In this document: one piece after another, positions 1,372-64,000 of the stretch
Position numbering within the stretch: position 1 is the stretch's first letter
How the letters are laid out: the number at the start of each line of letters is the position of its first letter
Assembly: GCF_018977255.1 (NCBI RefSeq)
Contig: NW_024704754.1
Coordinates: 18,724,001 to 18,788,000 of the forward strand
Direction: 5' to 3'
Length of the DNA: 64,000 nt
DNA from: Callorhinchus milii
Taxonomy: Eukaryota
Program-made: the position numbers and the translations under genes
The notes under the pieces: generated by a model
The model's database searches: none
The model's input: only the letters and a program-made list of their open reading frames with translations
Told to the model about the DNA's origin: nothing

Positions 1372-3519
1372 CTGTAAAACACATAACAAACAGGTCCTTT
1401 GTGGGGGTGTTTTTTTTTGGCTCTAGTTATTTAAAAGCAAAATATATCCTAAGATACATATTGAATACTACTAAATGTCTGGTCGGGAGAAAATGGGATT
1501 GAACAAACTCACTACGTTTGATTTACACTGATCCAATTCCCTTCTCTCTCAGAGTTAGAACGGACAAGACACCAAAGATTTTACCACCGCCCCCCCCCCC
1601 CCCGGCCAAACAAAACACATGTTAACAGATAGCTATAATCCACGTCCCAGCACACAGTGAAGGGTAAATTGCACATTACTTCCAGAAGTAAGTTAAAATT
1701 ATGCCATCAATCAAAATCGCTGCTGCGTATTTGGAAGGACATCATTTTTTGTTCCACTTAAAGGGGGTTCCACTTAAAGTTTAGCCGATAAAAAATAAAG
1801 TAGAGCCATGAAAGGGTTTATACCCTAATTAAAGTACACCCATTGTAGGGTTAACAGTTGATTTAACGTCCAACATGTCATACCGGTGAATGTCAGACTG
1901 TAAATGAACTGATGGGGGGAGGTTTTCCCGCTTATTTACTTTGTAGGATGCGATTGAAAGCAAAGGACATTTGATGAAAATGGGATTGACATTAATTAAG
2001 TGCGTGTTTGTGTTTTCATCAAACCCACTCAAAGCTCCATTAGACCTCTGAATGCCACACTCCCCCACTCTCTCTCTCTCTCTCTCCAAAGCCTATTTAA
2101 CCACGAGCAAAAATTCCACTTGAAAACCCACATTTAAATAATACATTTCCTTATGCAACTGACAGCTTAAACTCAACCCATTCGCTGGGCTAGTTTCTGA
2201 GACATAAAACGTATCCGCCTGAATTTAACTTATTTCAATCCCACTTCAATTGATCTCACTAATTTGAACTTTTTGATGTATAAGAAACAGAATATTCAAG
2301 CTGTGTAAAATTAAGATTCTTTATATTTACAGAAAGTGGCTTGATGTAACATTACAAGAAAATTTCAGGCGATGGTTTCTCTTTTTTTAACCAAACTTTA
2401 AAGTGGAATTTTTTTTCTGCTCTGGGCTCAGTAATAGTTGTGTTTAAGATGTGGAACATTTTGAAAGAAACGGAGAAAAGAAGGAAAGAAGAAAATAAGG
2501 AAGGAAGCGAATTATTTGCGTGACAGTCACATAAAAGGCAAGATGGGTTGAGAGCAGCGTGAATAATGCCACCTGGAGTTACTATCTGTCACCCTCACCA
2601 CTCAGACATACTTGTTGCAAATAAATTAAGAAAGGTCGAGCAATTACTAGGGAACCAACCCTATATTGTCAATATGTCAAGTTCCATCGCACACAAACAT
2701 CAACACAACAATTGTATTCAGATGAGATATGCGTCTGTGTCTCAGTAAAAAAGTGAGTTAAGTATTCCTTTGCTGTCACAAGAAAACGTTTTGGTTCATC
2801 ATTCTATCGGTTCATATGCTTACAGCTCCCAGGGGGATTACCCCATTAGCCTAGATACAAAGAACCTTGATGTATGCGACGCCTTGTCGCTTCTAAACTG
2901 TCTCAAAGCTCGGCTCGGTGCTGGGATGTCAGCCTACACTGTGTGTAGACTGAAGTCCCAAAGTGGTTAATTGTTGGCGTATTTTAGGAATGATCGTGTC
3001 TTGTGTTCGAAAAAGGAGCGCTGTGGCGGAGGAGAGTTACCTGGTCACTTCTGGCGAGTGACCCATAACAATGTGCCTCCCTTAGTTCACTCCCAATGGG
3101 AAAGGGTCTCCTTAACAGACAGCGTTATGTGGGAACCTGTGAATACTGACACCCATTTGCGGTTTAAAGGGAGCTAATGGATCACATGATATCACACACA
3201 TACACCTAACGCGACATCGACTGAGGATAGGCAGAGTCTCGATGAATACTGAGAGATCCCTCGCTAACAGTCCCGGTGACAGACTGCACAACTCTTCCCC
3301 AGTCAATGCATTGAGTTTGTTGGATGGTGTGCAAGTGTGGCGAATTCTGTCTGGAAGGTTCCCTGTGGACAGAGGGTTCACCCGAGGCACCGTGTATTTC
3401 AGAATCAGCAAAGAAAGAAGGAAAGAAAGGGAGAAAAAGAGAGAAATATATGGTTTTGATGTTCTTCGACTGCTTGTCCGTTAGTCTGAGTTGAGACTTA
3501 AAGACTCTATCAAGCTCAC

Positions 3520-6027
3520 CTGGCTTGTTGGGTTGGTCCTGGGTTTGGCAGGGTTTGGGGTCTGCCCACTCCGTCCAGTCACAGAGGGCTGGGTGTTATT
3601 GGGCGGGGGGGCGGTGGCTGGCGCGTAGGGTTTGAGAAACATGAAGTCACTTTTGGCCGACTCAGGGGTCAGACACACCCTGTAACAGTAAGCCTGGGAC
3701 CCGCTGCCTCCCACCTCGGCGCAGTTGGGCGCCGCCTTGGTCCCCGAGGCGATCTGCAGGTTGTTGTTGGCCTTTTTTTGGTAGATCTCCCTCGGACTCT
3801 TCCTTCTCCAGAAACAGACACTCCTACAGCAAGGTACTGGGGAGCAGGTGTAGGCTTCGCGGAGGTTGTTTCTGTCCCTGTGGCAGCGGATGGCGGCGAG
3901 GATAACGATAGCCACGAGAAACAAGAAGGAAATGGAGCCGAGAGAGATGATCAGATAGAGAGTGAGGTCAGTGTGTGGCTCCTGATCTCTGGTCACGTCA
4001 GATTGGATCTCAGGCACAATGTCCACGATAGACAGGGCTATGGTCATGGTGGATGACAGTGGTGGTTGCCCATTGTCCTTGGCTTGGATCACTAGTCTTT
4101 GGTTGACAGAGTCTTGGTCACCAAAGCGCCTGACTGTCCTGATCTCTCCCGTGTAGAGCGCCACGCTGAACAAGCCCGAGTCGGTGGCTTGGAGCAACCG
4201 GTAGGAGAGGCGAGCGTTCTGTCCCGCATCCGCGTCCACCGCCGTCACCTTCACCACCAGGTAACCGGTATCGGCGGATCGAGGCACCCTCTCCACCGCC
4301 ACCGAGCCGTTGGGCGGTAAGGGAGACACGATAACCGGCCCGTTATCGTTCTGATCCAGAACGAAGACGTTGACGGTCACGTTGCTGCTCAACGAAGGGA
4401 AGCCGGCATCCTGCGCTTGCACTTGGATTTGGAAGCTCTTAAGTTGCTCGTAGTCAAAGGAACGTAGGGCGTAGATGTTCCCGGTGTCCGAGTTGATGGA
4501 GACATAAGTGGACACAGACATGCCCTGTATCTGACTGCTCAGGATAGAGTAAAACAGGTAGGAGTTCTGGTTCAAGTCTGGGTCCACTGCGCTCACAGAG
4601 CAGATGGAAGCGCCCGGTGCGTTGTTCTCAGTCACATACACAGTGAAGGTGAGCTGCGTAAAGCGCGGGGTGTTATCGTTCACATCCGACACCTGTACCA
4701 CAATGGTCTTGTTGCTGGAGAGAGAAGGGGTCCCCATGTCTCCGGCGGTGATGGTGATGTTGTACTCAGCCACACTCTCCCTGTCCAGCAGGTCATCAGT
4801 GACCAACGTGTAATACTTCTTGAAGGAGGGCAAGAGTTTGAACGGGATGTTCTTGGCGACTTTGCAACTCACCCTCCCGTTGGCCCCGGAATCGCGGTCC
4901 ATCACGTTGATCAGAGCGATCACGGTACCCGGAAGTGAGTCCTCTGGGACGGGGGTGGACAAGGAAGTCAAGATGACCTCTGGCGGGTTGTCATTCAAGT
5001 CAATGATCTCCACCATCACATTGCAATGCGCCGCCACCGCGTTCTGTCCCTTGTCCTTGGCTTGTACAAAGATCTCATATAACGCGGCTTCTTCGTAATC
5101 CACCAACCCCCTCACCCTGATCTCCCCGGTTCTGGGGTTCACGCTGAACAGTTCCCGCACCCGCTGATGAGCGTGGTTACTGAAGGCATAAACTATCTCC
5201 CCGTTCGTACCTTGGTCCAAATCGGTGGCTTCCAGTTTGAGAACCAAAGTTCCCTTGGGTGCATTTTCCACCAGCCTCACAGAGTAGACCGTTTGGTCAA
5301 AGACTGGGGTGTTGTCGTTGGCATCCAGAACACTGATGGTGATCTGCGCGGTGCCCGATTTCTCCGGGATGCCCCCATCTATCGCTGTCAACACTAAGTG
5401 ATGGGTCGCTTTCTGCTCCCGATCCAGCGCCTTCTCCAGAATCAGCTCCGCCAACATGCTCCGTTCGCTGCGAGCATGCACATCCAAGATGAAGTGTTCG
5501 TTGGGAGTCAGCCGGTAGGTCCGCAGCGAGTTGGGGCCAACATCCGGATCGTGGGCGCTTTCCAGGGGGAATCTGGCTCCCGGAGTCGCCGATTCGGTGA
5601 TGTCCAGCCGCACTTGGCTTTGGGGGAAACTGGGATAATTGTCATTGACATCCAGAATCTCTATCTCAGCCTGATACAGCTCCAATGGGTTCTCTATCAC
5701 CACTTCCAGGTTGAAGAAACAGGTGGGATTCAGTCCGCAGAGTTGCTCTCTGTCTATCTTCTCATTGACAAACAATATTCCATTTTCCAAGTTGACATCC
5801 AAGTAGTGTTGACGAGCGCCGGACACAATGCGGAACCTGCGGGCGGACAGTTCCGCTACGTTCAAGCCGAGATCGTCGGCGATATTGCCCACAAATGCGC
5901 CGTGTTCCAATTCCTCGCGAATCGAGTAGCGAATCTGCCCAAACGCCGAACCCCAAAGCCCGGAAGAACTCAAGAACAAAAACGCCAGACAACAGTCCAA
6001 AATCCGGCTTGGATTCGAATTAGCCAT
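3520..6027 (-). CDS. Clustered protocadherin variable exon (signal peptide, 6 cadherin repeats, TM, variable cytoplasmic region); first gene of the cluster
   Basis: ATG at 6027 (MANSNPS...). Hydrophobic signal peptide, QIRYSIREE start of EC1, repeated DRE/DxNDN/AxDxG motifs, TM segment YLIISLGSISFLFLVAIVILAAI, cytoplasmic CYRVCLTPESAKSDFMFLKP. Phase-0 donor CAG|GTGAGC at 3519 precedes the ORF stop at 3481. Confidence 0.95.
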
Positions 6028-14465: not shown

Positions 14466-14768
14466 CCAAGGCTCGGAGTCCCCAGAGTGTGATTTACATT
14501 ATAAATAATTCTCACTCACAGTGAATAGCTATTGTCCTTCAATGGGACTCGTCTTATTTGGTGCCTCCATTAATCCAGAGTTTTGTTTGTTTGTACAGCA
14601 TTTCATGTTCTCCTTTGGTGTATCCCCCCCCCCACACACACACAGGTGTGACTGAATCAGCAGTGGTGCTCCACTTCCTCGTCATTGTACTGCTTTTTGT
14701 TGCGAACCAGTTAAATGCCAAAATAGTCAAAACATTATCCGGTATAAAAATAAAGAATATTGAGGGGG

Positions 14769-14872
14769 AAAAAAAAACGTCAGACAGCGCCCGTGGCACG
14801 AGTCCCGATGTTACTCGGGGCTGTTAAGTGTTTTGCAATAAACGAAGTATCCACTGAGCTATAGCTGACGCC
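14769..14872 (-). ncRNA. vtRNA: Vault RNA, copy 1
   Basis: Minus strand: GGCGTCAGCTATAGCTCAGTGGATACTTCG...CACGGGCGCTGTCTGACG-T9. Box A TAGCTCAGTGG, vault-typical TACTTCG and GGGCGCT blocks, terminal stem CGTCAG/CTGACG and an oligo-T Pol III terminator. Lies between ZMAT2 and the Pcdh cluster, like human VTRNA1. Confidence 0.88.
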
Positions 14873-14897
14873 GAGAACTAGAGGTGAAAATACAACC

Positions 14898-14914
14898 TAT
14901 AAAGAGTGGTGTCA
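14898..14914 (-). promoter_or_regulatory. Upstream elements of vault RNA copy 1 (TATA-like TTTATA at about -26 to -31; TGACACCA at about -35 to -42)
   Basis: Read directly. Vault RNA genes are known to combine internal A/B boxes with upstream TATA-like and CRE-like elements. Confidence 0.5.
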
Positions 14915-15016
14915 TTCCTCCTCAGAACAGAAACCGAAAGTGTTTCTCAGCAAAACACCATCTCACCAAAAACCACTGGGTCCAAACTGTCCCCCAACTC
15001 CCCCAACAAAACTTTA

Positions 15017-15403
15017 CCCCCCCCCCCCCCCACACACACCACCCCCCCACACCCCCCTCCCACACACACCACCCCCCACACCCCCTCCCACACACACACC
15101 CCCCACACCCCCCTCCCACCCCCCCCTCCCACACACACACCCCCACACCCCCCTCCCACACACACCCCCCTCCCACACACACACCCCCACACCCCCCTCC
15201 CACACACACCTCCCCCCCACACCCCCTCCACCACACACACACACCCTCCACACACTCACTCACTCACTCACTCACACACCCCCACACACTCATTCACTCA
15301 CACTCACTCAACACCCCCACAGACTCACTCACACTCACACACACCCCCACACACTCACTCACACTCACTCACACACCCCCACACACTCACACACTCACAC
15401 TCG
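15017..15403. repeat. C/A-rich low-complexity and microsatellite tract
   Basis: Runs of cccccacacac and cactcact; absent from the second duplication unit. Confidence 0.9.
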
Positions 15404-15794
15404 CTTCTTTTTGAAACCCCACTGACACTCTTCACACTTCAGATGTCGATGTTCGTTTTGATATTATTCTCTTTGCATTTTTTTCATCATTGTTACTATT
15501 ATTATTAAACACCGGGAATCCCCGAATCATTAGTCAGTGGTTCCCATTCACAGACCCGCGTCACCCCCCGGATTGAAAGGCTATTATTTTTTCCCCCAAA
15601 CACTCCCCACTCCCCCCCCCACACAGATAAAGGGGGGTCGGAAAGGACAGCAATGGGGGAGAGAGAGAGAGAGGGAGAGAGAGAGAGAGAGAGGGAGAGA
15701 GAGAGGGAGAGAGGATAACGGAAACTCCGCGGAAGCAGCGAAACGGCAAATTAAACCGGAGACCGAGTGACCGACTGTGAGGAGAGAGAGAAAC

Positions 15795-15965
15795 CCCACG
15801 CGGGGCCTCGGCCTCGGCCCCGCCCCCCGGGGAGCACGTGGGTCCACATGTATCGTTTCAGGGACCAATCGGCGAGCGTTCTGCGCTGATGGATACACTG
15901 CCGACCAATCGGGTACCGCGGGGTGACGGGGGGGCGGGGCCGCCCGGGAGGCCCTTTAAACTAAA
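15795..15965 (+). promoter_or_regulatory. CpG-rich orphan Pol II-type promoter
   Basis: GC box ccccgccc, E-box CACGTG (15835), two GACCAATCGG boxes (CCAAT at 15865 and 15905), GGGGCGGGG, then TTTAAA at 15955. Confidence 0.55.
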
Positions 15966-16049
15966 CCACTCATCGCCATCAAAGGCTGTGTGTGGGAGCG
16001 GAGCTCCGACTGTCCCTCACCGTGTCCTCAGCTCTGTGTGTGTGTGCAA

Positions 16050-16860
16050 CATAACATGTAGGAGCAGGAGGAGGCCATTCGGCCCTTCGAGCCTCTGCTC
16101 CACCATTCAATCGTGGCTGATCTTCTAATCTAACTCCAGCTAATAACCTGGCCCTGCCTTACCCACATATACCCCCCCCCCCCACACATCACCCACCCCC
16201 CAAAGCCTTATCCCCATATCCCTTAATCCCTTTTGCAATAAGAAGTCTATCTCTCTCAGTCTTGAATATGTTCGAGGACTGAGCGTCAACAGCCCTTTGG
16301 GGTAGTGAGTTCCACACATTCACTGCCCTTTGAGTGAAGAAGTTCTTCCTCAACTCAGTGCGAAAGGGCTGTCTCTGATTTTAAGGTTGTGACCCCTGGT
16401 TTTAGTTTCTCCGACCGGGGGAAACAATCCCCCACTATCTACTCTATGCCCTTTGATGATCTTATAGGTTTCTATAAGATCCCCTCTAATTCTTCTATAT
16501 TCTAGAGAATATACACCCAAATTGGTCAGCCTATCCTCGTAACTCAACCCCTTTATCCCTGGTACTAACCTAATAAGTCTACGCTGCACCCCCTCCAAGG
16601 CAAGTACACCCTTCCTTAAATAAGGAGACCAAAACTGCCCACAGTATTCCAGGTGTGGTCTCACCAGGGCCCTATACAGTTGCAGCAAGACTTCCCTACT
16701 CTTATACTCTATTCCTTTCATAATGAATGCTAACATACCGTTCGCCTTCCTAACTGCTGCTGCAGCTGCAGACTAACTTTCTGTGATTGGTGTACAAGGA
16801 CACCCGAGTCCCTCTGGACTCTAACACATTCCAATCTCTCCCCTTCTAAAAAATAACCCG
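16050..16860 (-). mobile_element. CR1-clade LINE, 5'-truncated (RT C-terminus and 3' UTR)
   Basis: ORF 16350-16736 contains LQLYRALVRPHLEYCGQFWSPY..LEGVQRR..RGDLIETYKI..TRGH, typical of the CR1 ORF2 end. The 3' end has the aggagcaggaggaggccattcggccc motif on the plus strand. Confidence 0.92.
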
Positions 16861-16864
16861 CTCT

Positions 16865-17045
16865 ACAAGCGGTGGAAGAGGATAGAGTGGTCGACCCTAT
16901 CGAATGCGGCCGATAGATCGAGAAGGACGAGGAGGCAGAGGGATCCCTGGTCGCAGATGGTCAAGATGTCATTAGTGACCGTGACCAGGGCGGTTTCCGT
17001 GCTATGGGCAGCACGGAAACCCGACTCGAGGGGTTCAAAAAGTGA
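16865..17045 (-). mobile_element. L2-clade LINE RT fragment
   Basis: Minus-strand translation [49 protein letters not shown]. Confidence 0.85.
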
Positions 17046-17066
17046 ATGGGTAATTCACTTGTTCTT

Positions 17067-17479
17067 GTGTATCCCACACACACACACACACACAGGTGTG
17101 ACTGAATCAGCAGTGGTGCTCCACTTCCTCGTCATTGTACTGCTTTTTGTTGCGAACAAGTTAAACGCCAAAATAGTCAAAACATTATCCGGTATAAAAA
17201 TAAAGAATATTGAGGGGGAAAAAAAATTTTTACTGAAAAAAAACGTCAGACAGCGCCCGTGGCACGAGTCCCGATGTTACTCGGGGCTGTTAAGTGTTTT
17301 GCAATAAACGAAGTATCCACTGAGCTATAGCTGACGCCGAGAACTAGAGGCGAAAATACAACCTATAAAGAGTGGCGTCATTCCTCCTCAGAACAGAAAC
17401 CGAAAGTGTTCCTCAGCAAAACACCATCTCACCAAAACCACTGGGTCCAAACTTCCCCCCAATTCCCTACAAAACTTTA
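17067..17479. repeat. Local duplication unit 2 (carries vault RNA copy 2)
   Basis: Near-identical to 14618-15016. Confidence 0.95.
17236..17338 (-). ncRNA. vtRNA: Vault RNA, copy 2
   Basis: 95-nt body identical by eye to copy 1; T8 terminator followed by a second T run; upstream TTTATA and TGACGCCA. Confidence 0.88.
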
Positions 17480-17599
17480 ACCCACTCACTTTTTACACAC
17501 TGACACACTTTACACAATTTGAATAGCTAATCCCAACAGTTTTTTTTTATATCTATTTTATTTATATATAAGAAAGCCCCGAATTTGTCTTAATATACA

Positions 17600-18600
17600 T
17601 TCACCCGCTTCACCTGCTTTTGCATTGAAAGCTATCAAACATCAAGTGCGAAGAGGTCCTGACTTCTTCACCTCAAAGATTGAAAACATCCATCACTCCT
17701 GGTTGCATCATCTTCCTCCCCCCCCCACCACCCTCATTGTCCCCTTCCACCCCACCCGGAGCATCCACTCCACCTTCTCCCTCCGCCACGGTTCCTGACG
17801 CTACCCCCTCCTTACACTCTTTTGCCCCCCATTTCTTCCTCCTCCCTCTCAATCACAATCACCCGCATGAAGTTCAGCACCTGCTGCCTTGACCCCCTCC
17901 ACACCCAGCTGCTGGTCACTCAACTTCCCATCCTCGCCCCCCTGTGGCCAACACAGTCAACCAGTCTCCCCGTTGGCAATGTCATCCACAGACACGAGGT
18001 GAACTTTCACATGTATGCGTACGGCACACAATTCTACTTTGCCTCCTCCATTATCGACGCGAGGTCCCTCGATGTTGTATCAGCTTGTCTGGCAGACATC
18101 AGGGCCCAGATGAGTGCAAACTTCCTGCAGCTGAATGTGGACAAGACGGAAGCCATACACTTTGGCGCCCGTCAACATCTTCACTCCCGCGGATCTAAAG
18201 TCTTCAACCTCCCTGGGCTCTCCTTCAGGCTCACCGAACTAGTGCACAATCTAGGTGTTCGGTTCAAACCCCAGCTGTCCTTCATCCCCCACACCCGGTC
18301 CCTGACCAGGACCGCCTTCCTTCACCTCCGCCACATTGCCCGCCTCCGACTGTACCTTACCCCAAATGCAGCCCAAACCCTCATGCGTGCGTTTGTCACC
18401 TCCCGCCTGGATTACTCAAACACATCCTTTGCTGGTCTCCCCAGTTCCACCATTCACAAGATCAGCTCATTCAGAACTCTGCTGCTCGCATACTTAACCA
18501 GACCAAACTCCGTACCCACATCTCACCAGTTCAGGCCAGGCTCCACCTGCTCCCCATCACCGAACGGATCGACTTCAAGATCCTCACACTTGTGTCCAAA
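17600..18600 (+). mobile_element. Decayed L2-clade LINE ORF2 fragment
   Basis: ORF 17822-18790 contains FHMYAYGTQFY (degenerate YADD), CLADIRAQMSANFLQLNVDKTEAI, HNLGV and FVTSRLDYSN. Confidence 0.88.
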
Positions 18601-20099
18601 TAGCTTTCATGCTTCCTTTCTCAACCCTCTGACCTCCTCTGCTGCCTTCGCTTTGCGTCCCCTTCTTTTCTCCTCTTTGCCAAGTTCTGCTGTCTTTCAG
18701 CCTCAGGCGCACTCTCTCTCACCTCCTGCTCATCTCCACAGTATGCAGCTGCCAGAGTTAATTTATTTACTAATAGCATTAACCCAGTAACCTTAAAGCA
18801 ATCGCTGGTCACCTCAAGCAGCCTCCATGCTTTCCCTCACAGATGGAGCAGACAAGGGCAGGATTGGCTTGTAAAAGTTGTCACATGCATTTCACAGGTT
18901 TTTCAGCTTATGTGGCTAAAATCAGCATCTGTTTTGCTTTATCTTTTATATCATTATGATTAAGGACCAGCATAAACCAGACCCTTCTCTCTCTCCCGTC
19001 ACCAATATTGTGAATGAAGATGATGGTAGATTTAACTTGAATTGAGAAAGCCAACTCAAGTGCTCGGAGAACAGACACTATAGAAGAAAGAATAAATAGA
19101 CACAAAGGTTAGAGAGCTCCAGGGGAGATGTAAGCACCAGCACAGACAAGATGGACTGAGTGACCTAATTTAACACTGTAAGCTTTCTGTGGATGTTTGT
19201 GGGACACTGCTGTGTGTGTAATTGGCTGCCTTTGGGACGTCCTCCCAACGTGAAAGGCGATCTATAAATGTATTTTTGTTGTTGTATTTTGTTGTTGTTG
19301 CCACATTTCGCCCCAAAATACACAGTAAATCCACTTTACAATATATTCCATTAAGCGCTTTGACCCGTCTCAAAGAAAAGTGATAAGGTGCTATATCAAA
19401 TGCAAGGCTTATTATTATTATTATCTCCAAAAGGCGACACTTGTTGCTGATGCTGCAGATCAGAAGTGGAAAGTTCTTCTGTGGCCAAACAACACAAAAA
19501 TTGAAGTCTTTATGACAAATATATCAGTTGCTCTTTGTCCAGTGTTTCAAACAAGCTTATTCACGTCTTGTTGCTATTGAAAATAATTGAGTTTAAGGAT
19601 GGTATCCATGACACCGGCCCAATGTGTAAACTGTGGCAGAGATCCTCTGTGAACCCAGTTGTGGGTTTCCCAGCCTCTGTGCTGTTTCAGGGAACTTACA
19701 TTGGACCTCAACCCTTAATTGGAACTGACAAAATAAAATGTCACATTGCCTCGGGGCTAAAACGGTAACCTTCTAATCTGAGATGCAAGTAGTTGCTCTT
19801 CCCAATGTACCATCGGGCTTTTTGCTCCTGGTTTCTGTTAGGTAACTAATGGGATGAGTCAATAAAACTGCCACTGCATAAAGTAATGGGATGTGGGTCT
19901 GCATGTGAAACTCCCCCAAACTGTGAGCTTCTCATCTGAACCACTCCATGATGAGCAATTGGCAAATGGAGACCAAGAGGAAAATAAAATTACGCGACTG
20001 TGTTTTATTGAGAACAGTTTCTTTGTCATACATTCCTTCCTTCTCCTTGCAATTTTGTGAGAATAACATTAACAATAAACCATGAATCTGAATATTACA

Positions 20100-23446: not shown

Positions 23447-26400
23447 TCAGCTGCTCTTCTTTGTTGACCCGAAGCCAGAGAAACCCATGACAGCCGCCAT
23501 CTCGTCGTCTTCCTCAAACGTCAGCTCTTCCTCTGCCTTTCGCTTCTTCTCCTTCTGCTTCTCCTTCCTGTAAGCCTTAGCTTTCTCTTCCTGCAAATAA
23601 CAGGCAAAACTAGCAATCAAGCAACATCACAACAACAACTTGCATTCACACAGCGCCCCTCGCGCAATGTAGTGTCCTAGAGCGCTTGAAGGTTAGCGGA
23701 GCATGACGTGGAGCCAGGAGAGGTGATTGTAGGCACGGTCGAAGAGGAAGGCCTTCAAGCTCCATCTGAAGATGCGGATGGCAAGGGGAAGGCGGAGGGA
23801 TAGAAGAGCGTTCCAGAGTTTCGGGGTATAGTGGCTGAAAGTGCGGTCACCGATGGTGGAATGGAGGGAGGGCACGAAGGATAAGCACTAGATCGGTGCC
23901 CAGGTACAGACCACTCGACCCATCCCTCGTGTCTTTCCCACATCCAATGAAGGAGAGTGTGCAATCTTATCACAGCTCATCACAAAGAAATTGTCTTAGT
24001 AATTAGTCACATAGAGCAACTGTCTTTATCGGCAAATATCGCTGCTGTTTTATACACAGCAAATCGCCACACATAAATCATGCAGAGAATGAGATTTAAT
24101 CTGGGGGGTTGTTGACCAGGACAATGTTTTCCAAGGGATTTTTAACATCCACCCAAACCCCAAGACTGGGCCCTGGATTAACATTTATCGAAAGGATAGC
24201 ATCGGCAACAATGCAGTTCCTCCCAGCACAAAAAGTTCCCTCAATTAACAGCAGAGCATTGATTTATCACCAGAGCCCCCGCCAGGTTTCTCGCGCTGAG
24301 ACTGAACATTTCATGGCCGCAGGATTACCTCAAGCTCTGGTGAGTAAACAGGAGAAGCCAGGCTGCTCCTTTAATAAACAGTATCGACTGCACCCTGGGC
24401 AATAAATCTCATTGCCGGTCACACTGTAAATCATGCTCCACATAATCTCAGGTTATAGATAAATGTGTCCTTTGAACAATCGTTCTTTCTCTGGGTCTAA
24501 TTGCTTGTCCTCAGGACATCAGTAAACTCCTGGCTCAACAAATAAATCTTTCACAACAATGTGCATTTCTTTCAGGTAAACAAAGTGCTTTGTAAATATG
24601 ATAGGGAGCACCGAGCAGGAAGGAATGAAAGGAGAATTAAGGATGTTGATAGTTAGAAAGGTAGATTTAGGGAGGGTTGTTCTAGGTAGTGAGAGTGGAA
24701 AGGCGAGGAAGAGGATTTCAAAAATAATTTTAATGATAATCTTTGCATTTGATATAGCTCTTTATCGTGACTTCGAGACATCTCAAAGAACTTCACACAA
24801 TATATATTAAAGTGGAATGACTGTATATTTTGTGGGTGAAATGCAGCAGCCAATTGCGCACAGCAGCGTCCCACAAACAGTCGTGGATTGAGTATTTTTA
24901 AAATTTTGAAGGGATTATTATCCCCGGAAAAGCGATCCGCCAATCAACTAACAACTGGGTTCCTACTTACTGCTGAGTAAATAAGGGAACCTGCCCAACT
25001 TTTCACTCTGCCCGGGGATCGAACTTGCGAGATGAGTGCTCTAACCACTAAACTACAGGACTCCACATTTCATTTCTTATTCTAATAATGAGCATTTTAA
25101 GCACTAGAGGCAAGTGTCACTCTCGGTGTGCAGTCTCTCACCTCTTCCCTCAGCTCCTTCATCCGCTCTTCAAAGTCGTACTCCTTCTGTTTCTCTTCAA
25201 TTTTCTTTTTATTTAGCTCGAAACGTTTCTTCACCTGGTCCAGGGTGGAACGCTCCACCTTCATAGACATGCCCAGGTTCCTTTGGTCTGTCAAACAAGG
25301 GATAAAAAACATCAAATTGGGTGCTACAGTCAACACAGCTCAAAGAGGCAAGTGAATGTTCAGAAACTATGGCACAGGAGGTTGCAATTCGGTCTGGCTT
25401 TAAAATTCATTTTATATGAAATGCTAAAGTGGTATTGATAAAGCTTATAGATAACGACCCTCCCCTGTTTTGGGGTCATGTTATCAAATGCTTAATGATT
25501 TCATAATCATTGCTGTTTGTACCTCTGCTTCCTTTAGCGAAACTACTGCAAGATGAAGAATTTTCTCTGTAAATCTGCCCTCGGTCACTGATTATAAAGA
25601 TCACTCAACACTAGTACAAATAAGAGAATTTCTCCCACTGCCCCTATAATAATCCTTGCATTATTATTCTTATTATTATGCCCTAGACAAAAATAATTCC
25701 ACATTCATCTCTTGGCTGTCGTTGAAAGCTTGTGATTGAGGAAGGAGATTTTGGTCTGTCCTGAATCAATCAGTCGCTGCCTGACTCTGAGAAAGTTCTG
25801 TAAACCCTGACTTGAGTTTTGTGTTCAATACATCCCCAGAGCCAACAATTCTCTAACCAGTTCACACTAAACTCAACAGGTATTTGTTTTATTACAGTGG
25901 GAGCATCAAATAACAAAAAGTTGCCCTCTGGATTTCACTCCATCTTTAAAACAAATAGCAAGTTTGCCCATTTGATTTTTTCCCTGCAAATGATTTTCCG
26001 ATTCTCCCATTTGTCTCTATCAGAGGAAAGGGTGCAGTCAGTTCTGCAACCCTTGATTTATAACAAGGAGAAAAAGCAATTGTCAATTTAGTAAAAGCAC
26101 AGCACAGCCCAGATAACAGCTCAGTATGTTTGGAATTGAAACACACAATGTAATACATCACATTTACTTACTTCCTGCTAATTCAGCTCCCAGTAAAACC
26201 TGTCAGGTGCTATTGCTACTGTAGCACTCTGTCTTAATGCCCCCGGGATTTAGAATCAAATCTCAATCCCTCTATCCTGAAATAATCATCACTGCCCCTG
26301 CCCGGCTGGCTGTCATTTGATAATGGTTGGAAGAACATCCTGGTTCAGATGAAATGTGCTTGTCTAACGGTAGGTAGGGAGGTGTCATTCCGTTTATCAC

Positions 26401-29400
26401 CTCTGAAGTGAAATCAATCTCCATTCAAACCAGCAGCCAAATCACTTTTTCTTCCTGCTCAGTAAATCCACTCAGCGATTAGCCTCTTCCACAGACTGTA
26501 ACAGAACCCTGCCGTTTACCAGCAAAGGTATTTCTACAATTTATCTCACCCTGATACTCTAATCCAGTAGGTTTCTGATTTAGCCCTCGACAAAACATAT
26601 TCCAGCTGTCAGGCAAGCCCAGGACTAATCGATCCAGCAACAAGCTCCACCAGATTGGTTCTGCTGGTGTCATCGGGATGATAGGGACACAGAACTGACA
26701 CATTCACAAATTGTGCAGACAGTGACAAGAGTGAATTTGTATTGCCTTCTTTAAAGTGTTTATAAGGCAGCAAAATGGGCCTCTGAGTTACTGCATTATA
26801 TCTGGAATAGGAGATAAAGTTATTCAGTGCTCATGCATCAGGTGTGATTAGAAATTTTGGAAAGAAATGGCTATTTCTTATAACATCATAGAATTTTACT
26901 CATCGGTCGGTCCATTCTGCTCACGTTTTTTGCCGTTGATGTGATCCAAGAAGTTGATGGAATCCTTCACCACACAGTCACAGACATTGCAATAGTATCT
27001 GCGGGAGGAAGCGTTTACACAACAGAGTGTAACAAAAGTCAGCGGATGTGTGAACATATTGTATTGTGTTGTGAACATTTTGTTTCTAACAGCACAGTCT
27101 GCTCGTTGGGCACAACTATCATTCAATCTGTTTTCTGTACTTCACTATGATATACATTTGTAGTGGGGTAGGTATCAATCCAGAATGAAGGAGACCTATA
27201 ACTCCCGCGGTGCACATGGTTAACATGTAACACACCTTACTGTCAAGTTCACACAGTAATAATAGGCACGTGGGCAGGATACTTCTGTCCAGCCTTGTCC
27301 CAGGAATGATCTTGTTTCCCCAGTCGGCAAAGGAAATATTTCAGAGGGGATTTTTTAATCACCAGTTGAATATTTGGAAGCAATCGGTAAAGTCATGAGT
27401 CGGGGGGAAATCACATGCTACTCAACACAGTCAACTGCGGGAAGTTGTCCATTCCCTGGGTACATTACTGTCAACAGAAAAATGTGTTTACAGACCAATC
27501 ACAACAGCTATTTGGACCTCCCCTCCAGCCCGACTGCTCATGTGGAACAATGAGGACACGTGCAGGGCACTCACCCTCCCATCTCCGACTGTGGCGTTGT
27601 TTTGGTGATGACGATGGTTTTGCCCAGTTTCGATTCCAAATCAACTTTATAATCTCGGTGACGCAGAAGCTCCCGCTTAACGGGAGTGGGAGGCTTGGCT
27701 GGAACAAGGAGAGAATGTGGAATGAGTGTGAATCCCAGGCGAGGGGAGTACAATAACTTGCATTTATAATAGCGCCCTAGTGTCATGCGGGGTAGAGTCC
27801 CAGAGTGCTTCACAGTGGCCGAGTCTGACAACGAGCTTAAGGGGAGAGGGAGGGGAAGGAAACCGTAAGACAATCAAGTAAAGGAAGGCCTTTAGGTAGG
27901 ATTTGAAGGTGGGGAAAGAGGAGATAAAGCAGAGGGATTGAGGGAAAGTTCCAGAGTTTCGCAGAGTAGTGGCTGAAGACACAGCCACTGATCGTGGAGC
28001 GGAAGGCACGAGGGACAATTAGGAGGCCAAAGCCAGCTGAGTGGAGGAAGCAGGTGGTGTAGAGGGGTCTAAGCAGGTCGGATAGGTGGGGAGGTGTGAG
28101 GGAATTAAGTGATTTCAAAACAAATATTGTGGCTTGGCTATGATGCCTTTTCCCCCCTCCCCCAAAATAATCTACCAACCCTCGCCCCGTTTTTCTCACA
28201 CTCGCATAAGTCATATCAAGAAACAAGTCTAAATTTATACATTTATTTAATGACCTTGATTATTTTAACTGATAAGAAATTGACAGGTTAAATCCTCTCT
28301 TAAGTATTTTGTTTTCTCCTGCGTAATTTTCAAGCAAACAAAGTTCGATTCCCCTTGTTAATTCAAAATTCCTTTTCATATCTCCCCGTCATCCGAGCTG
28401 GATTTCCTTCCCTCAAATCATTAGTGTGTTCCCCCTGTACACACTGTCACCTCTTCTCCCTCTCCCCTTTGTTTCATCATTGAACTGTCTTGTCTGCTTG
28501 TGGCGATGGAGCCAGGCCAGCTCACTATAGTGCATGGCTCCCTGCAGCAGCCCATCGCCAGCTAACAAGCAGAGCACGTTAAAGGTTTCACTGCCTCTAA
28601 GCTAAACGATCCCACAACAGTAATGAAGAAACTAGGGAATAAGCCGCATCCATTGGATTCTGGCTGGCCAAAAAGTTGCATGTTTAAATAAAGAGAAAAG
28701 TCATAAGAGTCACAGAAATACCAACACAGCGGCAATTCATTCAGCCCATCGAACCTCATCTAGTGAAACTCTCTCCTCTAAACCCATTCCCCCATTCTTG
28801 ATAGGTTCCTTCTAGGTTTTTAAGAGTTTTGAAGACAAAGAAGGAGAAAAATGAACAAATTGAAATGTATCCAATATTGAAATAAACCATAACCGAAGAT
28901 TCCGGCATAGCGCCGACACAGCGATGTAAACATGCTCACTGACTACATATTTGTACAGTGGAATCATCGCTTTCCTCTGAAGCACTGACTGTTCTGCATT
29001 TCCACTTACCATCTCGCTTCTCTCTCTCTTCCAACAACCGTTTCTGTGCCAGTTTCTCGTATTCATCCTTGTCCCACTTCTTGCGGAAGTCCATGTTTTT
29101 TGTCTACAGGAACAAGACGACTTTGTTAGGAACAAAACTTGGAAGGAACGCATCCCTAAGCGACAGTGTAATGTGTGGCTCGTGCCCTCAAGTGTTCCTT
29201 GTTCCTCCACACATAATGGGTGGAATGGAATGAAAGGGCTAATAGAGGAAAGGCAGTCAATAATATACACTGCAATAACTGCATAAAACTACACGTACAA
29301 ATAAAAGCATCCCCAACACCTCACTAACTACGGTCAATACGTGGTGGGATTGAAGCGACTGAATGACGTTTGGATTTTTTTAAGTCACCAGAAAGAAAAC

Positions 29401-30579
29401 CACATTGATCAAAAATTTGGAAGCCCCAAAAAGTTCAGACTTAGCAGCAACTTCCCCCAAAACGTTAACAAACTTCATTCTCCCTATTTTCAGTCAAGAC
29501 TCGGGCGACTGTTTATTGACACAAAAATGGGCAGGGCTTTGGGGTAAAGAGCGGGGGAGTGGGACAAGTTGGTAGCTCTACAAAGAGCTGGCACAGGTAC
29601 GACGGGCTGAATGAATGGCCTCCTTCTGAAAGGTTGTGTGATTCTACGGGATATTGTACATAGGGTGTTCGGGATGTAGGTGCATGCGATCGCCAGGAAG
29701 GCGGAAGGCGAACTAGACGGAACTTGGGGTCTTTTTTCCGTCCGGCGTCTCTGATGTTCCCACGACCAAGACAACTTGCTCAGGGCCGGGCAGCGCTTCC
29801 GGGCTCAGGGTGACTTTTCATGTGAATTACATTGTGAGGAACAAATTCAGCGTGAAGATTATTTCACTGATCCACAAACAGAGGATATAGAGATGTATAA
29901 TTATCCACACAAACACAAACTGTTGTTACTTTCCTACCAGAGCAGCAAAAACAAATTGGGTCACTCAATCCGTGACTGTTGGTGGGGCATTGGCTGCCAC
30001 AAATATCAATGTAATAACAATAATCCTCGCACTTGACACAGCGCCTTATCACGTCCTCCGAGACGTCTCAAAGCGCTTCACAGGATACGCTGTAGAAGTG
30101 TAGTGACTGTGCATTCTGTGGGCGAAGCACGGACAGCGTTCCCCCGCAAACGGCCGTGGGTTGAGCGACCAAATCTTCCTCATCGACGCGGAGGGGTTAC
30201 TAACCCGAGCGACGCACAACCGGGTTCCCTCTCTTCCTGCTGCTCAGGGGCAGGTCACAAATACACAGTCACTACACTGGACAGTATGTCCTGCGAAGCG
30301 CTTCGAGACGTCTCGTCGACGTTATATCAAACGCAGAGATTATTATTACTATTATTATTATTATGATTATCCCTTCACTGGGAGCCTGAGGCCCGGGGGC
30401 CACACCAGCGAGAGCGCGAGTCTCCCCCGGATGGTGATGGGGGGGGACAGGCCCAGGCCTCGGCCTCAGGCCCCGAGCGGGCGCAGGCTTCAGGCCTCGG
30501 TCCCCGGGCAGTTGCGGGCTGTCGGGCTGCGCCCCCCCCCCGGGCGGCCTCTCGCACTCACCCCACTGCCAGACGCCAT
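23447..30579 (-). CDS. ZMAT2: Zinc finger matrin-type protein 2 (199 aa, 6 coding exons)
   Basis: Exons 30562-30579, 29010-29103, 27575-27698, 26925-26998, 25142-25287, 23447-23590; all GT-AG, 600 nt in total. Protein [22 protein letters not shown]...[30 protein letters not shown]...[12 protein letters not shown]. Confidence 0.97.
24733..25063 (-). mobile_element. tRNA-derived SINE, near full length
   Basis: Tail at 24733; tRNA-like head (ggatcgaac...ctaaccactaaactacaggactcc) at 25015-25063. Confidence 0.85.
27750..28110 (-). mobile_element. L2 LINE 3' end fragment
   Basis: Minus strand encodes [17 protein letters not shown]-like text followed by the gcgctattataaatgcaagtt tail. Similar fragments at about 23630-23890, 37960-38290, 47305-47560 and 56570-56800. 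Confidence 0.75.
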
Positions 30580-30779
30580 CTCTCCGTCTCTCTCTGTCTC
30601 TCTCTCCCCCTCTCTCTCTCTCCCGCCGCTGCCGCCGCGCTCACTCCGCCCGGGACAAGAGGGCCCTCCCCGCACCTGCTGCCGGCTCAGCAGCGACACG
30701 CCGCCCCCTGGCGGCCGGAGGCGGCACCGCACCCGCTCAGCCCCGCGCCTTCAGCACTCAAATGCCCTGTGGGCTGCGG

Positions 30780-31232: not shown

Positions 31233-31545
31233 GGAGTCCTGTGGCTCAGTGGTTAGAGCACTCGCTTTGCAAGTGAGAGACCGGAGTTCAATTCCAGGCA
31301 GAGGGCGAAACCTCGGGCAAGTTTCCTTACCCCACACAGAGCCTAATAATAATCCCTCCAAAACAATAATAAATTGGTCATTTTCAACCTACGACTGTTT
31401 GTGGGACATTGCTGTGCGCAATTGGCTGCCGCGTTCGCCCACAAATATACAGTCAATTCACTTTACAGTGTGTTCTGTGAAGCGCTTTGGGACGTCCTCC
31501 CGACGTGAAAAGCGCTATATCAAATGCAAGGATTATTATTATTAT
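31233..31545 (+). mobile_element. tRNA-derived SINE with intact Pol III A and B boxes
   Basis: Head GGAGTCCTGTGGCTCAGTGGTTAGAGCACTCGCTTTGCAAGTGAGAGACCGGAGTTCAATTCC (anticodon-like TGC); tail ggattattattatt. Confidence 0.88.
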
Positions 31546-46700: not shown

Positions 46701-48536
46701 GTAAACAGTACAACATTGAGCTTTATATTCAGGTGCCTTTCACATTCATATAAAACAATCGCATCGGCCCCCAAACAAACAGTTTTGACAGTTGTGGGCT
46801 TACGGTATTGTGCTGGGTGTACACTTGAAACCTTGATTTCCCAAGCAAAAGCCCTAATTTAATCAAAACTTGAATCTTTTGGAGGGGAAAGAAGCAAAGG
46901 ATTGATTAAAAAATTCCCATGATGATTCTGTGTGCTGGATCGTGAAGCAATTTAATTCAGGGTTGCATCACCCAGCCATAAATAACTTCACTCAACACAG
47001 CAAACATAAGAGGGTGAGATTAGAGAATTAGCTCAATGTTGGTTCTACCATCTACATATACCTCCTTCACCATTAAGGAAGAGACAATAGTCTCTGAAAA
47101 ACAGATTTTAATAAAAACAGATTCACAATGAATGCAGAACTGCAGAATTCAGCTGTAACACTAACCCAACGAAACCACTATCTTTTTGGCTGCAGAGACC
47201 ATCTCTGATCAACAGCAAACTCCAGTCGAGGTATCAAGAGATATCTGATTACAGGGACCACATCATAATGTGCCTTCTTGAATCCATCAGAATATAAGTA
47301 AATCAAAATGACATTTGTACTACAGAGCCTTTCGCATCGGGAGGGCGTCCCAAGGCACTGGAGAGTCAGGGATTTGGACCCGAACTGGGGGGCGGAATCG
47401 GGGAGGGTGGTCGAAGGCGCAGTCGAAGAGGAGGGTTTTGAGACGCGACTTGAAGGAGGCGAGGGAGGGAGGGAGGGAGCGAGGCGAAGGGAATGTGTGG
47501 AGGAGTTCCAAAAGGTGGAGTGCAAAAAGGCTGAAGGCCCGAGCGCTGATGGTGGTGGTGGGGGGGAGACGGGATGTGGAGCCTTTATTACAGGACATGT
47601 CAAACAGATTGACAGTTTGTTGCTGTCACCGCAGGTCCTGCAAACAGTCCACCACTGCACTGGAACACACAGCAGAGCTCGGAGCACTGCAGGTCCACCC
47701 CACACACACAGCCCCCCCCCACACACACACAGCCCCCCACCCCACACACACACAGCCCCCCCCCACACACACACAGCCTCCCCCACACACACACAGCCTC
47801 CCCCCCACACACACACAGCCTCCCCCCCCACCACCCCCCCCCCCACACACAGCCCCCCCCCACACACACAGCCCCCCCCCCACACACAGCCCCCCCCCCA
47901 CACAGCCCCCCCCCACACACAGCCCCCCCACACACACACACAGCCCCCCCCACACAGCCCCCCCCCACACACAGCCCCCCCCCACACACAGCCCCCCCAC
48001 ACACAGCCCCCCCCCCACACAGCCCCCCCCCACACAGCCCCCCCACACACAGCCCCCCCCCCACACAGCCCCCCCCCACACAGCCCCCCCCACACACACA
48101 GCCCCCCCCCACACACAGCCCCCCCCCCACACACAGCCCCCCCCCACACACCAGCCCCCCCCCCACACACACACACAGCCCCCCCACACACACACACAGC
48201 CCCCCCACACAGCCCCCCCCCACACAGCCCCCCCACACACAGCCCCCCCCCCACACAGCCCCCCCCCCACAGCCCCCCCCACACACACAGCCCCTCCCCC
48301 ACACAGCCCCTCACCAGCCCCTGTGCAGACCCGCTGTACCCGGGGCTGACAGCCTGTGTGAGGGGGGGCTCTCCTCCCCCGCCCGCCACGTGCTGCCGCC
48401 ATTCCCCGCCGCTGGGAGGGGGGGGGAGGGGGGCACTGACCTTGTCCTGAGCGGCCTTCTCCGCCTTCAGTTGGCGGACCCGCTCCGCCTGCGTTTTAAC
48501 CGCGACCTCCAGCTCCGCGCCTCCAACCGCCGCCAT
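37760..48536 (-). CDS. HARS: Histidyl-tRNA synthetase, cytosolic isoform (513 aa, 13 exons)
   Basis: Exons 48441-48536, 45541-45630, 44919-45038, 44302-44397, 43471-43596, 42800-42907, 42274-42372, 41873-41966, 41004-41131, 40283-40543, 39310-39426, 38673-38819, 37760-37819; 1542 nt, in frame. WHEP N-terminus, [36 protein letters not shown]. Confidence 0.97.
43597..44301 (-). other. U12-type (minor spliceosome) GT-AG intron in HARS
   Basis: 5' site GTATCCTT at 44301-44294; branch site CCCTTAAC at 43617-43610, about 12 nt from the AG; no strong polypyrimidine tract. Confidence 0.88.
46223..46336 (-). CDS. HARS: Alternative first coding exon of HARS encoding a mitochondrial targeting peptide (38 aa)
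   Basis: ATG preceded by an in-frame TAA. Translates [38 protein letters not shown]. Phase-0 donor CAG|GTGTGT joins in frame to exon 45541-45630. Confidence 0.78.
47698..48310. repeat. Degenerate (CACAGCCCCCCC)n minisatellite in HARS intron 1
   Basis: Seen directly; source of several spurious Gly/Pro-rich ORFs. Confidence 0.9.
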
Positions 48537-48700: not shown

Positions 48701-49012
48701 ATCACTGGTCCCGGCCACGACGAGTTGCTGATAATAATCATAATTGCAACTGACGCTGTGGGCTTTGATGTCAAACTGCCAGACATTTATGGGGCAAAAT
48801 AAATAACGATACCAACGGCACACGAGCGGCCCTCGCCCCCGACGTGCCCTGTGTAAACTCACAAGCACTGGCAGGGAAATGGAACAGTGCAAAAACTGCA
48901 TATAAAAAAATATCCCACACATTGCTGTCAGCTCCACAATGAGAACAGATGTGTACACGCACTTTTGGATGCTGCCAAAGGAGGTACTTACTTAGGAACC
49001 AGATATGGCTTC

Positions 49013-49360
49013 CAGTGAGATGTGGCATTGCTCTGACAGTGAGATGTGGCATTGCTCTGACAGTGAGATGTGGCATTGCTCTGACAGTGAGATGTGGCAT
49101 TGCAGTGACAGTGAGATGTGGCATTGCTCTGACAGTGAGATGTGGCATTGCAGTGACGGTGAGATGTGGCATTGCTCTGACAGTGAGATGTGGCATTGCT
49201 CTGACAGTGAGATGTGGCATTGCTCTGGCAGTGAGATGTGGCATTGCTCTGACAGTGAGATGTGGCATTGCTCTGACAGTGAGATGTGGCATTGCTCTGG
49301 CAGTGAGATGTGGCATTGCTCTGACAGTGAGATGTGGCATTGCTCTGACAGTGAGATGTG
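49013..49360. repeat. 24-bp minisatellite (CAGTGAGATGTGGCATTGCTCTGA), about 14.5 copies
   Basis: Near-perfect head-to-tail units with a few variants (gcagtgac, ctggca). Confidence 0.95.
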
Positions 49361-49611
49361 CGAATGGATGGATTGGCAGTGGTCATGTATGTGGGTGTTG
49401 CACTGCCAGCGAGGGGCTGTGCTTGTGCCCTGGGGTGTGGGTGACATTGAGAGGAACGCGGGTGGCGCAGAGCTACGCTGTGTTTGTGACACTGTCCCCA
49501 TTGTGAAGCGCACTGACGGCACAAGGCTCAGCTCCGCTCTGGGCGGTTGGGTTCTGTGCTTCTTCCCCACAGTCCCCGCCACCGCCACCCCCTGAGGCCA
49601 CAGATGTAACC

Positions 49612-54471: not shown

Positions 54472-60690
<6,219 letters not shown>

Positions 60691-62473: not shown

Positions 62474-62990
62474 CCAAACCCACCACCCCCCAAACCCACC
62501 AACCCCCCCAAACCCCCCACCGCCCCCACCCCCAAACCCACCAACCCCCCCAAACCCCCACCCCCCAAACCCACCACCCCCCCCAAACCCACCACCCCCC
62601 AAACCCACCACCCCCAACCCCAAACACACACCCCCCAGACCCACCACCCCCCCCAAACCCACCACCCCCCAAACCCACCACCCCCCAAACCCACCACCCC
62701 CCAAACCCACCAAACCCACCACCCCCCAACCCACCACCCCCAAACCCACCAAACCCCCCACCCCCACCAATCCAACCCCCCCAAACCCCCACCCCCAAAC
62801 CCCCCACCCCCAAACCCCCCACCCCCCCTCCAAACCCTCCACCCCCCAAACCCACCACCCCACCCCCCAACCCACCACCTCCCCAAACCCACCACCCCCC
62901 AAATCCCCCAACCCCCAAACCCACCCCCAACCCACCACCCCCAAACACCCTCCCCCCTCCCCCCCAAACCCTAACCCCCCCTCACCCCCA
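62474..62990. repeat. (CCCCAAACCCACCA)n-like low-complexity repeat
   Basis: Seen directly; source of spurious Gly/Trp-rich ORFs. Confidence 0.9.
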
Positions 62991-63006
62991 ACACACTCAC
63001 TCTTAC

Positions 63007-63105
63007 CTTGAACCCAGAGGCTCCGCTGTAACCCCGGGGGGAGGGATGGGATCTTCGGCCAAACAGCGGACGGCAAATTTCCGAAATGTGCTGTTTCTCA
63101 ACCGC
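63007..63105 (-). other. Probable non-coding 5' exon of UGDH
   Basis: Strong donor AAG|GTAAGA at 63006 in a CpG-containing segment. The ATG exon has an acceptor at 60700. 5' boundary uncertain. Confidence 0.45.
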
Positions 63106-63107
63106 TC

Positions 63108-63568: not shown

Positions 63569-64000
63569 GCCCATCTCCACGCAGGCGCGGTCTGTCCTGT
63601 AGGCGTCACGTTGCTGTGGGTGGTCTCTGTGCCCCGGACCTGCCCATCAGTGGGGTCAGACCCCACTCTGCCCTGTCCATCCCCTTCCCCCCCCCCCCCC
63701 CCCCCACCACCTTGACCAGCCGGGTCCGCGGGCAGAGCGAGTTCCTGCATTTGAAGTTGCACCTCAATGTTAATTATTATTATTATTATTATTATTAACG
63801 TTAATAATAATCCTGACATTTGACTTCAGGGCCGTATCATGTCTTCGAGACGTCTCGGATATTTTTTTGTGCATTTTGTGGGCGAACCGCAGCAGAACAA
63901 AATCCCCGTCGTCGTTTCAACATTGTCAGGTCATCAAAAGCAATAATTTTATTGCAAAGAATCTGTGATCGAGATTCCCGAAGTACTATTAACGTGTTAC

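What the first reader, a model, noticed from the sequence alone, without database searches (positions are those of the whole stretch)
14769..17338. Two identical vault RNA genes hidden in a local duplication between ZMAT2 and the protocadherin cluster
Seen: two identical 95-nt minus-strand units (14778-14872 and 17244-17338) with box A, TACTTCG, GGGCGCT, a 6-bp terminal stem and an oligo-T terminator. Their flanks differ by substitutions and indels while the RNA bodies do not. Known: human VTRNA1-1/2/3 sit at the same ZMAT2-PCDH junction. Inference: an independent, recent or gene-converted expansion of the vault RNA locus in this lineage, invisible to protein-based annotation.
Basis: partly seen in the sequence, partly recalled or inferred. 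Interest (0 to 1): 0.8.

Follow-up and report, generated by a model that had tools for sequence, protein, structure and literature searches.

The report
Twin vault RNA genes, elephant shark
Two identical vault RNA genes lie at the usual vertebrate site between ZMAT2 and the protocadherin cluster in a genome that matches the elephant shark; they are likely an old duplication kept alike by gene conversion, so this is a known RNA in its known place with a small evolutionary twist.

Summary
Observation confirmed. Both 95-nt units are identical and score 63.9 bits on Rfam Vault RF00006 (cut-off 34). They are the only two matches that DNA and model searches returned in the genome. They lie between ZMAT2 and a clustered-protocadherin exon, on the same strand. 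A neighbouring DND1 exon is 98% identical to Callorhinchus milii DND1.

The duplication is probably old, not recent. A ~385-bp core (downstream flank, gene, promoter) is 97% identical, while collinear flanks beyond it are only ~72% identical, which points to gene conversion. Three of five inner-flank differences are CpG-to-TpG changes in copy 1, one in a CRE-like promoter motif, so copy 1 may be the weaker gene.

Contigs from one study confirm copy 2 and both outer flanks; copy 1's core rests on the assembly alone. Expression was not shown. Reviews already report the gnathostome locus and its repeated local expansions. Ordinary: a new member of a known kind.

The parts
14773..14872 (-). Vault RNA gene, copy 1 (PCDH-proximal), ~99 nt, T9 terminator
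   Evidence: Rfam RF00006 63.9 bits; motifs
17239..17338 (-). Vault RNA gene, copy 2 (ZMAT2-proximal), body identical to copy 1; T8 terminator and a second T8 nine bases further on (the 16-nt indel)
   Evidence: covered in context by contigs of X1 and X2 and, in its copy-2 form, of X3
14618..15020 (.). Near-identical core, copy 1 (downstream flank, gene, ~150 bp of promoter); inferred conversion tract
   Evidence: 97.4% identity over ungapped columns, 10 substitutions, 4 gap events; blastn
17067..17483 (.). Near-identical core, copy 2
14898..14903 (-). TATA-like TTTATA at -31, copy 1 (same in copy 2 at 17364-17369)
   Evidence: role inferred from the composite vault promoter
14907..14914 (-). 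CRE-like site at -42, copy 1, TGACACCA (CpG lost at 14910)
17373..17380 (-). CRE-like site at -42, copy 2, TGACGCCA (TGACG half-site intact)
   Evidence: same letter in the contigs of X2 and X3
15020..15400 (.). C/A-rich low-complexity expansion interrupting copy 1's upstream flank
   Evidence: 248 C, 102 A, 30 T, 1 G in 381 nt
15399..15586 (.). Diverged outer upstream flank of copy 1, homologous to 17484-17637
   Evidence: 72% over ungapped columns, 10 gap events; 0 of 1000 shuffles at the sensitive setting, reciprocal best of 1266 tiles
17484..17637 (.). Diverged outer upstream flank of copy 2
   Evidence: covered by contigs of X1 and X2
14470..14611 (.). Outer downstream flank of copy 1, weakly homologous to 15933-16045 plus 17046-17066
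   Evidence: 0 and 5 of 1000 shuffles at two settings, 746 and 39 of 1000 at two stricter ones; boundaries chosen after looking
15700..16035 (.). Unique CpG-rich island between the copies with two CCAAT boxes, GC boxes and an E-box; target unknown
   Evidence: sequence; CpG o/e 0.88 at 15800-15999; single match in G000; X1 contig 15718-16072
16046..17045 (-). High-copy retroelement fragments between the copies (CR1-like and L2-like; labels recalled)
   Evidence: very high contig depth; ORF 16350-16772 has no Pfam hit
23450..30580 (-). ZMAT2 gene, upstream neighbour
   Evidence: exon translations; exon matches human ZMAT2, E 1.5e-21; zf-met
3481..6027 (-). Clustered-protocadherin variable exon, downstream neighbour
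   Evidence: Cadherin, Cadherin_2, Cadherin_C_2; Atlas protocadherin clusters at 0.99

Best explanation
These are two identical vault RNA genes at the ZMAT2-protocadherin locus, likely transcribed by RNA polymerase III into one ~99-nt panhandle RNA, and likely derived from an old tandem duplication whose central ~385 bp was later homogenised by gene conversion. Shown: family match, synteny, box A, terminators, and a 97% core inside ~72% collinear flanks. Inferred from family knowledge: TFIIIC binds box A and a degenerate box B, upstream TATA-like and CRE-like elements add to transcription, and the RNA would bind TEP1 and vault particles in part while most of it stays free. Inferred from sequence: copy 2, with the intact CRE-like half-site, is likely the main gene; copy 1 carries CpG-decay changes and may be weaker.
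For: Rfam Vault 63.9 bits vs cut-off 34; two matches in G000 by DNA and by model (the model search scored 49 of ~125,000 rough candidates). Synteny as in human. Core 97.4% identical, including 98.5% in the downstream flank, where no function is expected; outer upstream flank 72%. That outer homology beats 500 of 500 and 1000 of 1000 shuffles at the sensitive setting, is the reciprocal best of 1266 window tiles in both directions, and starts right at the core edge; 7 control stretches were not significant. Both outer upstream flanks are covered within the same samples (X2: 15408-15552 and 17006-17690), so they behave as paralogues, not alleles. An exact X3 contig runs 14466-14633, into the first 16 bases of copy 1's unit. 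3 of 5 inner-flank substitutions are CpG-to-TpG (p 0.002 against uniform placement), as germline mutation gives and random assembly error does not. In X1 and X2 the contig in copy 2's context carries copy 1's letter at 17166 and 17433; X3's copy-2-type contig does so at the first site. Conversion would produce such shared variants. A second TROVE-domain gene besides Ro60 is in the genome; that it is TEP1 is inferred.
Against: The outer-flank homology is marginal under stricter scoring (48 to 146 of 1000 shuffles at 2/-3, 44 to 60 at 1/-1), and the flank is AT-rich. The unit contigs of X2 and X3, laid on copy 1, carry copy 2's letters at 14708, 14885, 14910 and 14945 and the 16-nt insertion. 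X2's contig crosses both edges of the core unbroken in copy 2's context (17006-17690), which a collapsed two-copy unit would not normally allow. All informative runs come from one study. Box B does not fit the strict tRNA-type consensus. CpG-biased differences also fit two alleles of copy 2. The shared letters at 17166 and 17433 could be errors or private alleles of the assembly.
Confidence: 0.62

Rival explanations
1. Copy 1's core is not fixed in the species: it is a copy-number or conversion polymorphism, or it was overwritten with a second allele of copy 2 during assembly or polishing.
For: Unit contigs of X2 and X3 show copy-2 letters at four substitution sites and at the 16-nt indel; X2's contig crosses both core edges unbroken. 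Copy 1 vs copy 2 inner divergence (5 substitutions in ~335 nt) is not far above that between contigs and copy 2 (1 and 4 in ~590-690 nt).
Against: The flanks on both sides of copy 1 are covered in these samples, and X3's flank contig enters the unit. Contigs drop variants. Contig depth beside the C-rich tract is low (2.3-5.2 vs 6.2-7.3), so copy 1's path would tend to lose when near-identical paths are merged. An artefact cannot create diverged outer homology.
Confidence: 0.17
2. A single recent ~400-bp duplication made copy 1; the resemblance of the outer flanks is chance or compositional.
For: 97% core identity with fairly sharp edges at simple repeats; outer homology is weak under strict scoring.
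Against: The outer homology is collinear, abuts the core on both sides and is the reciprocal best in the window. Differences pile up at the upstream edge (83% in 14987-15017), as at the end of a conversion tract.
Confidence: 0.13
3. Old duplication, with identity kept by purifying selection alone and no conversion.
For: The bodies are identical, and the X2 and X3 contigs show no change in the body.
Against: The downstream flank past the terminator is 98.5% identical; the vault central domain is highly variable between paralogues and species.
Confidence: 0.05
4. The units are dead Pol III-type repeats or pseudogenes, not working vault RNA genes.
For: Degenerate box B; vault pseudogenes exist in mammals.
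Against: Only two matches in the genome, at the canonical locus, with an intact stem, box A, terminator, TATA-like and CRE-like elements; reported pseudogenes lack the CRE-like element.
Confidence: 0.03

Closest known systems
Vault RNA family, Rfam RF00006; human VTRNA1-1/1-2/1-3 locus
   Same: Full-length model match; ~99 nt; box A, terminal stem, oligo-T end; upstream TATA-like and CRE-like elements; position between ZMAT2 and the protocadherin cluster; small tandem cluster (PMC7058938 section 2; PMC10491885 section).
   Different: The two copies are identical in the RNA, whereas the human paralogues differ in length and central domain. Box B is degenerate. No second (TGFBI-SMAD5-type) locus was returned.
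Lineage-specific vtRNA clusters of primates, guinea pig, pika and shrew; two bullfrog vault RNAs (89 and 94 nt)
   Same: Local multiplication at the PCDH locus (PMC10491885; the review does not place the bullfrog pair).
   Different: Here the flank anatomy points to an old duplication with a converted core. I found no such description for a cartilaginous fish, but the primary survey (Stadler 2009) could not be read.
Concerted evolution of tandem paralogues by interlocus gene conversion
   Same: A near-identical tract inside diverged flanks, a ragged tract edge, and variants shared between copies.
   Different: It concerns a two-copy small-RNA gene. The neighbouring elephant shark protocadherins are reported to have had only limited conversion (PMC2764143 passages).

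Membership tests
Vault RNA (RF00006) | Covariance-model score above the gathering threshold over the full model | tested here: met
   63.9 bits vs 34, model positions 1-99, both copies
Vault RNA (RF00006) | Panhandle: 5' and 3' ends pair, variable central domain, ~90-145 nt | tested here: met
   Rfam alignment; fold with a 7-8-bp terminal stem, z -2.0
Vault RNA (RF00006) | Internal box A | tested here: met
   TAGCTCAGTGG at +12
Vault RNA (RF00006) | Internal box B | tested here: inconclusive
   ATCGGGAC at +64 aligns to the model's ucGAgAC columns but fails the strict tRNA-type patterns
Vault RNA (RF00006) | Oligo-T Pol III terminator | tested here: met
   T9 in copy 1; T8 and T8 in copy 2
Vault RNA, VTRNA1-type locus | Located between ZMAT2 and the protocadherin cluster | tested here: met
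Vault RNA, VTRNA1-type locus | Upstream TATA and CRE-like elements | tested here: inconclusive
   TTTATA at -31 in both; TGACG at -42 in copy 2, TGACA in copy 1; motif match only, consensus recalled; no PSE or DSE identified
Vault RNA (RF00006) | Transcribed by Pol III as a ~100-nt RNA | tested here: inconclusive
   No informative data; see Tried and rejected
Vault RNA (RF00006) | Associates with TEP1 and vault particles | not testable with these tools
   A second TROVE gene is present; MVP profile searches were uninformative (see Tried and rejected)
Gene-converted (concertedly evolving) paralogues | High-identity tract inside older, diverged homology | tested here: met
   97% vs 72%; significant at two sensitive settings, marginal at two strict ones
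Gene-converted (concertedly evolving) paralogues | Paralogues closer to each other than to orthologues in related species | not testable with these tools
   G000 has no relatives here

The most novel reading that the evidence does not exclude
The elephant shark keeps two vault RNA genes homogenised by gene conversion, plus a TEP1-like gene, but has lost the major vault protein: a vertebrate whose vault RNA works entirely without a vault particle. Five MVP domain profiles found nothing in the assembly, but these searches lacked a positive control for MVP and an assembly gap is the likelier cause.
Probability: 0.06. Interest if true: 0.72.

Novelty: new member of a known kind. Interest (0 to 1): 0.24.

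Why it matters
It places the ZMAT2-vault RNA-protocadherin linkage in a cartilaginous fish, the sister group of bony vertebrates, which agrees with published statements that the linkage is gnathostome-wide. It also adds one more local expansion. The fresh detail is the anatomy: an old duplication with a converted gene-plus-promoter core, and a one-base difference in a CRE-like element between otherwise identical genes. That pair is a natural test of whether the element sets vault RNA output. It does not bear on what vault RNAs do unless MVP is truly missing.

Tried and rejected
Expression: no RNA holder listed; run X10, guessed to be RNA, laid nothing on 14466-16040. Neither is evidence.

Copy 1 cover: X1 had no contig depth on 14768-15350 and X2 next to none; no contig with copy-1-specific letters was laid for X2, X3 or X4, and X4 had no unit contig at all. 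Contigs show presence, not absence, and the stretch abuts masked low-complexity tracts, so this is left open.

In all, 7 of the 24 listed runs were laid. 

MVP: PF11978, PF01505, PF17794, PF17795 and PF17796 gave 0 matches in G000. The tool's control genomes did not ring either, so absence is not shown. TROVE was found, partly on minor contig C1075. An Atlas search on one of those exons was uninformative. No MVP protein was available as a query.

Flanks: homology beyond the L2-like element (15600-16045 vs 18700-19300) was not significant (23 to 82 of 300 shuffles). A DNA search with 15400-15600 returned only itself, so it lacks the sensitivity to see the 72% paralogue.

Selection on the body: the body-versus-flank contrast was rejected as evidence.

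Other: ARAGORN found no tRNA; the Rfam tRNA hit at 31239-31301 looks like a SINE head (inference). Earlier scan findings: nothing by place, words or sequence; 8 of 11 'vault RNA' notes were shown and are unrelated. Stadler 2009 and Yu 2008 are not held; they and their supplements may already list this locus.

Full report
Observation. 14778-14872 and 17244-17338 are identical, within a 115-nt exact match. Rfam Vault RF00006 matches both over the full model at 63.9 bits, E 4e-12, against a cut-off of 34. Searches of the own genome with the DNA and with the model (49 of roughly 125,000 rough candidates scored) returned only these two places. The RNA folds into a panhandle with a 7-8-bp terminal stem (z -2.0). 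Box A is at +12. A box-B-like ATCGGGAC at +64 aligns with the model but fails the strict consensus. Copy 1 ends in T9; copy 2 ends in T8 with a second T8 behind it, which is the 16-nt indel.

Context. Downstream lies a clustered-protocadherin variable exon, 3481-6027. Upstream lies ZMAT2, 23450-30580, then DND1, HARS and a UGDH-like gene. All are on the minus strand, like the vault genes. The DND1 ORF is 98% identical to a UniRef entry labelled Callorhinchus milii and at most 74% to sharks and rays, so the genome is the elephant shark or a very close relative. Reviews place human VTRNA1 between ZMAT2 and the PCDH cluster (PMC7058938, passages and section 2). They state that in gnathostomes the functional gene is often upstream of the PCDH cluster, with local multicopy clusters in primates, guinea pig, pika and shrew (PMC10491885, passages and one section).

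Anatomy of the duplication. The near-identical core is 14618-15020 vs 17067-17483: 371 matches, 10 substitutions and 4 gap events in 14634-15017 (97.4%). It is 98.5% in the downstream flank, 97.3% in the inner promoter and 83% in the last 31 bp. Past the core, and past a 381-nt C/A-rich expansion in copy 1, homology continues: 15399-15586 aligns with 17484-17637 at 72% over ungapped columns with 10 gap events. At match 5/mismatch -4 this beats 500 of 500 and 1000 of 1000 dinucleotide shuffles (4 of 1000 reach it with heavier gap costs). It is the best of 1266 window tiles in both directions, and 7 control stretches were not significant. At strict scoring it is marginal (44 to 146 of 1000). A weaker collinear match appears on the downstream side when the repeats at 16046-17045 are left out (0, 5, 746 and 39 of 1000 at the four settings; boundaries chosen after looking). 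I infer an old tandem duplication of at least ~0.7 kb, later split by retroelement insertions, whose gene-plus-promoter core was homogenised by gene conversion. Selection alone does not explain 98.5% identity past the terminator.

The two promoters. Both have TTTATA at -31. At -42 copy 2 reads TGACGCCA and copy 1 TGACACCA. [quoted passage not shown] Three of five inner-flank substitutions (14716, 14885, 14910) are CpG-to-TpG in copy 1 (p 0.002 against uniform placement). That fits real germline mutation and hints that copy 1 is the more methylated, weaker gene. This is inference; two alleles of one gene would show the same bias.

Independent data. Logan contigs of four samples from one study were laid. 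Copy 2 is covered in context: X1 17104-17689, X2 17006-17690. X3 has a 619-nt contig of copy-2 type. The bodies in X2 and X3 show no change; one of X1's four substitutions was not listed. Both outer upstream flanks are covered within the same samples, the CpG island is covered in X1, and an exact X3 contig runs 14466-14633 into the first bases of copy 1's unit. Against my reading: the unit contigs carry copy 2's letters at 14708, 14885, 14910, 14945 and the 16-nt indel, and X2's contig crosses both core edges unbroken. For it: they carry copy 1's letter at 14716/17166 (X1, X2, X3) and at the 17433 indel (X1, X2), as shared variants from conversion would; and contig depth beside the C-rich tract is about half, which would disfavour copy 1's path. 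Copy 1's core therefore rests on the assembly. I put about 0.17 on polymorphism or artefact.

How it likely works. From family knowledge: Pol III transcribes the gene from box A and box B with help from upstream TATA and CRE-like elements, and stops at the T run. TEP1 binds vault RNA through its TROVE domain, and most vault RNA lies outside the particle (PMC3762200 passages; PMC9179338 passages). The genome has Ro60 and a second TROVE gene on contig C1075, inferred to be TEP1. The MVP question is open (see Tried and rejected).

Literature coverage. Ten searches were run; none listed a paper on vault RNA copy number in a cartilaginous fish. Also read as passages: PMC7904556, PMC7255616, PMC2764143, PMC7916137. 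The primary survey, Stadler et al. 2009, and the elephant shark protocadherin paper, Yu et al. 2008, are not held. From recall only, Stadler's abstract reports the PCDH linkage throughout gnathostomes and frequent lineage-specific expansions, so this locus may well be listed there or in its supplements. No supplements were read.

Verdict. A real, correctly named vault RNA pair at the canonical locus; a new member of a known kind and possibly already catalogued. The added value is the old-duplication-plus-conversion anatomy and the promoter asymmetry. Interest 0.24.

Noticed in passing
window 15700-16035: Unique CpG island between the two vault genes with two CCAAT boxes, GC boxes, an E-box and a TTTAAA; it looks like a Pol II promoter with no evident target.
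   Followed up: partly
window 54800-59000 (-) and G000:C1:47869150-47869374: A UGDH-like gene sits next to HARS; a second UGDH-like exon, 76% identical, lies on contig C1. Possibly a retained whole-genome-duplication paralogue; not tested.
   Followed up: partly
window 23450-48560 (-): HARS, DND1 and ZMAT2 run on the same strand with DND1 between HARS and ZMAT2 and no HARS2 seen; in human and anole DND1 and HARS oppose ZMAT2. Spotted gar is also reported to lack HARS2 and to have DND1 in a different place.
   Followed up: partly
G000, whole genome: Five MVP domain profiles gave no match while a TEP1-like TROVE gene lies on minor contig C1075; the searches lack an MVP positive control.
   Followed up: partly
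window 31239-31301 and repeat families D8-D17, D20: tRNA-like head (Rfam 33.8 bits) followed by a body repeated many times across the window; likely an abundant tRNA-derived SINE.
   Followed up: no
window 48941-49444: Tandem array with a 24-nt period and copies up to 96% alike, just upstream of the HARS first exon.
   Followed up: no
window 15020-15400, 47695-48290, 62440-63600: Long strand-biased C/A-rich or C/T-rich low-complexity tracts; the second lies in the first HARS intron.
   Followed up: no
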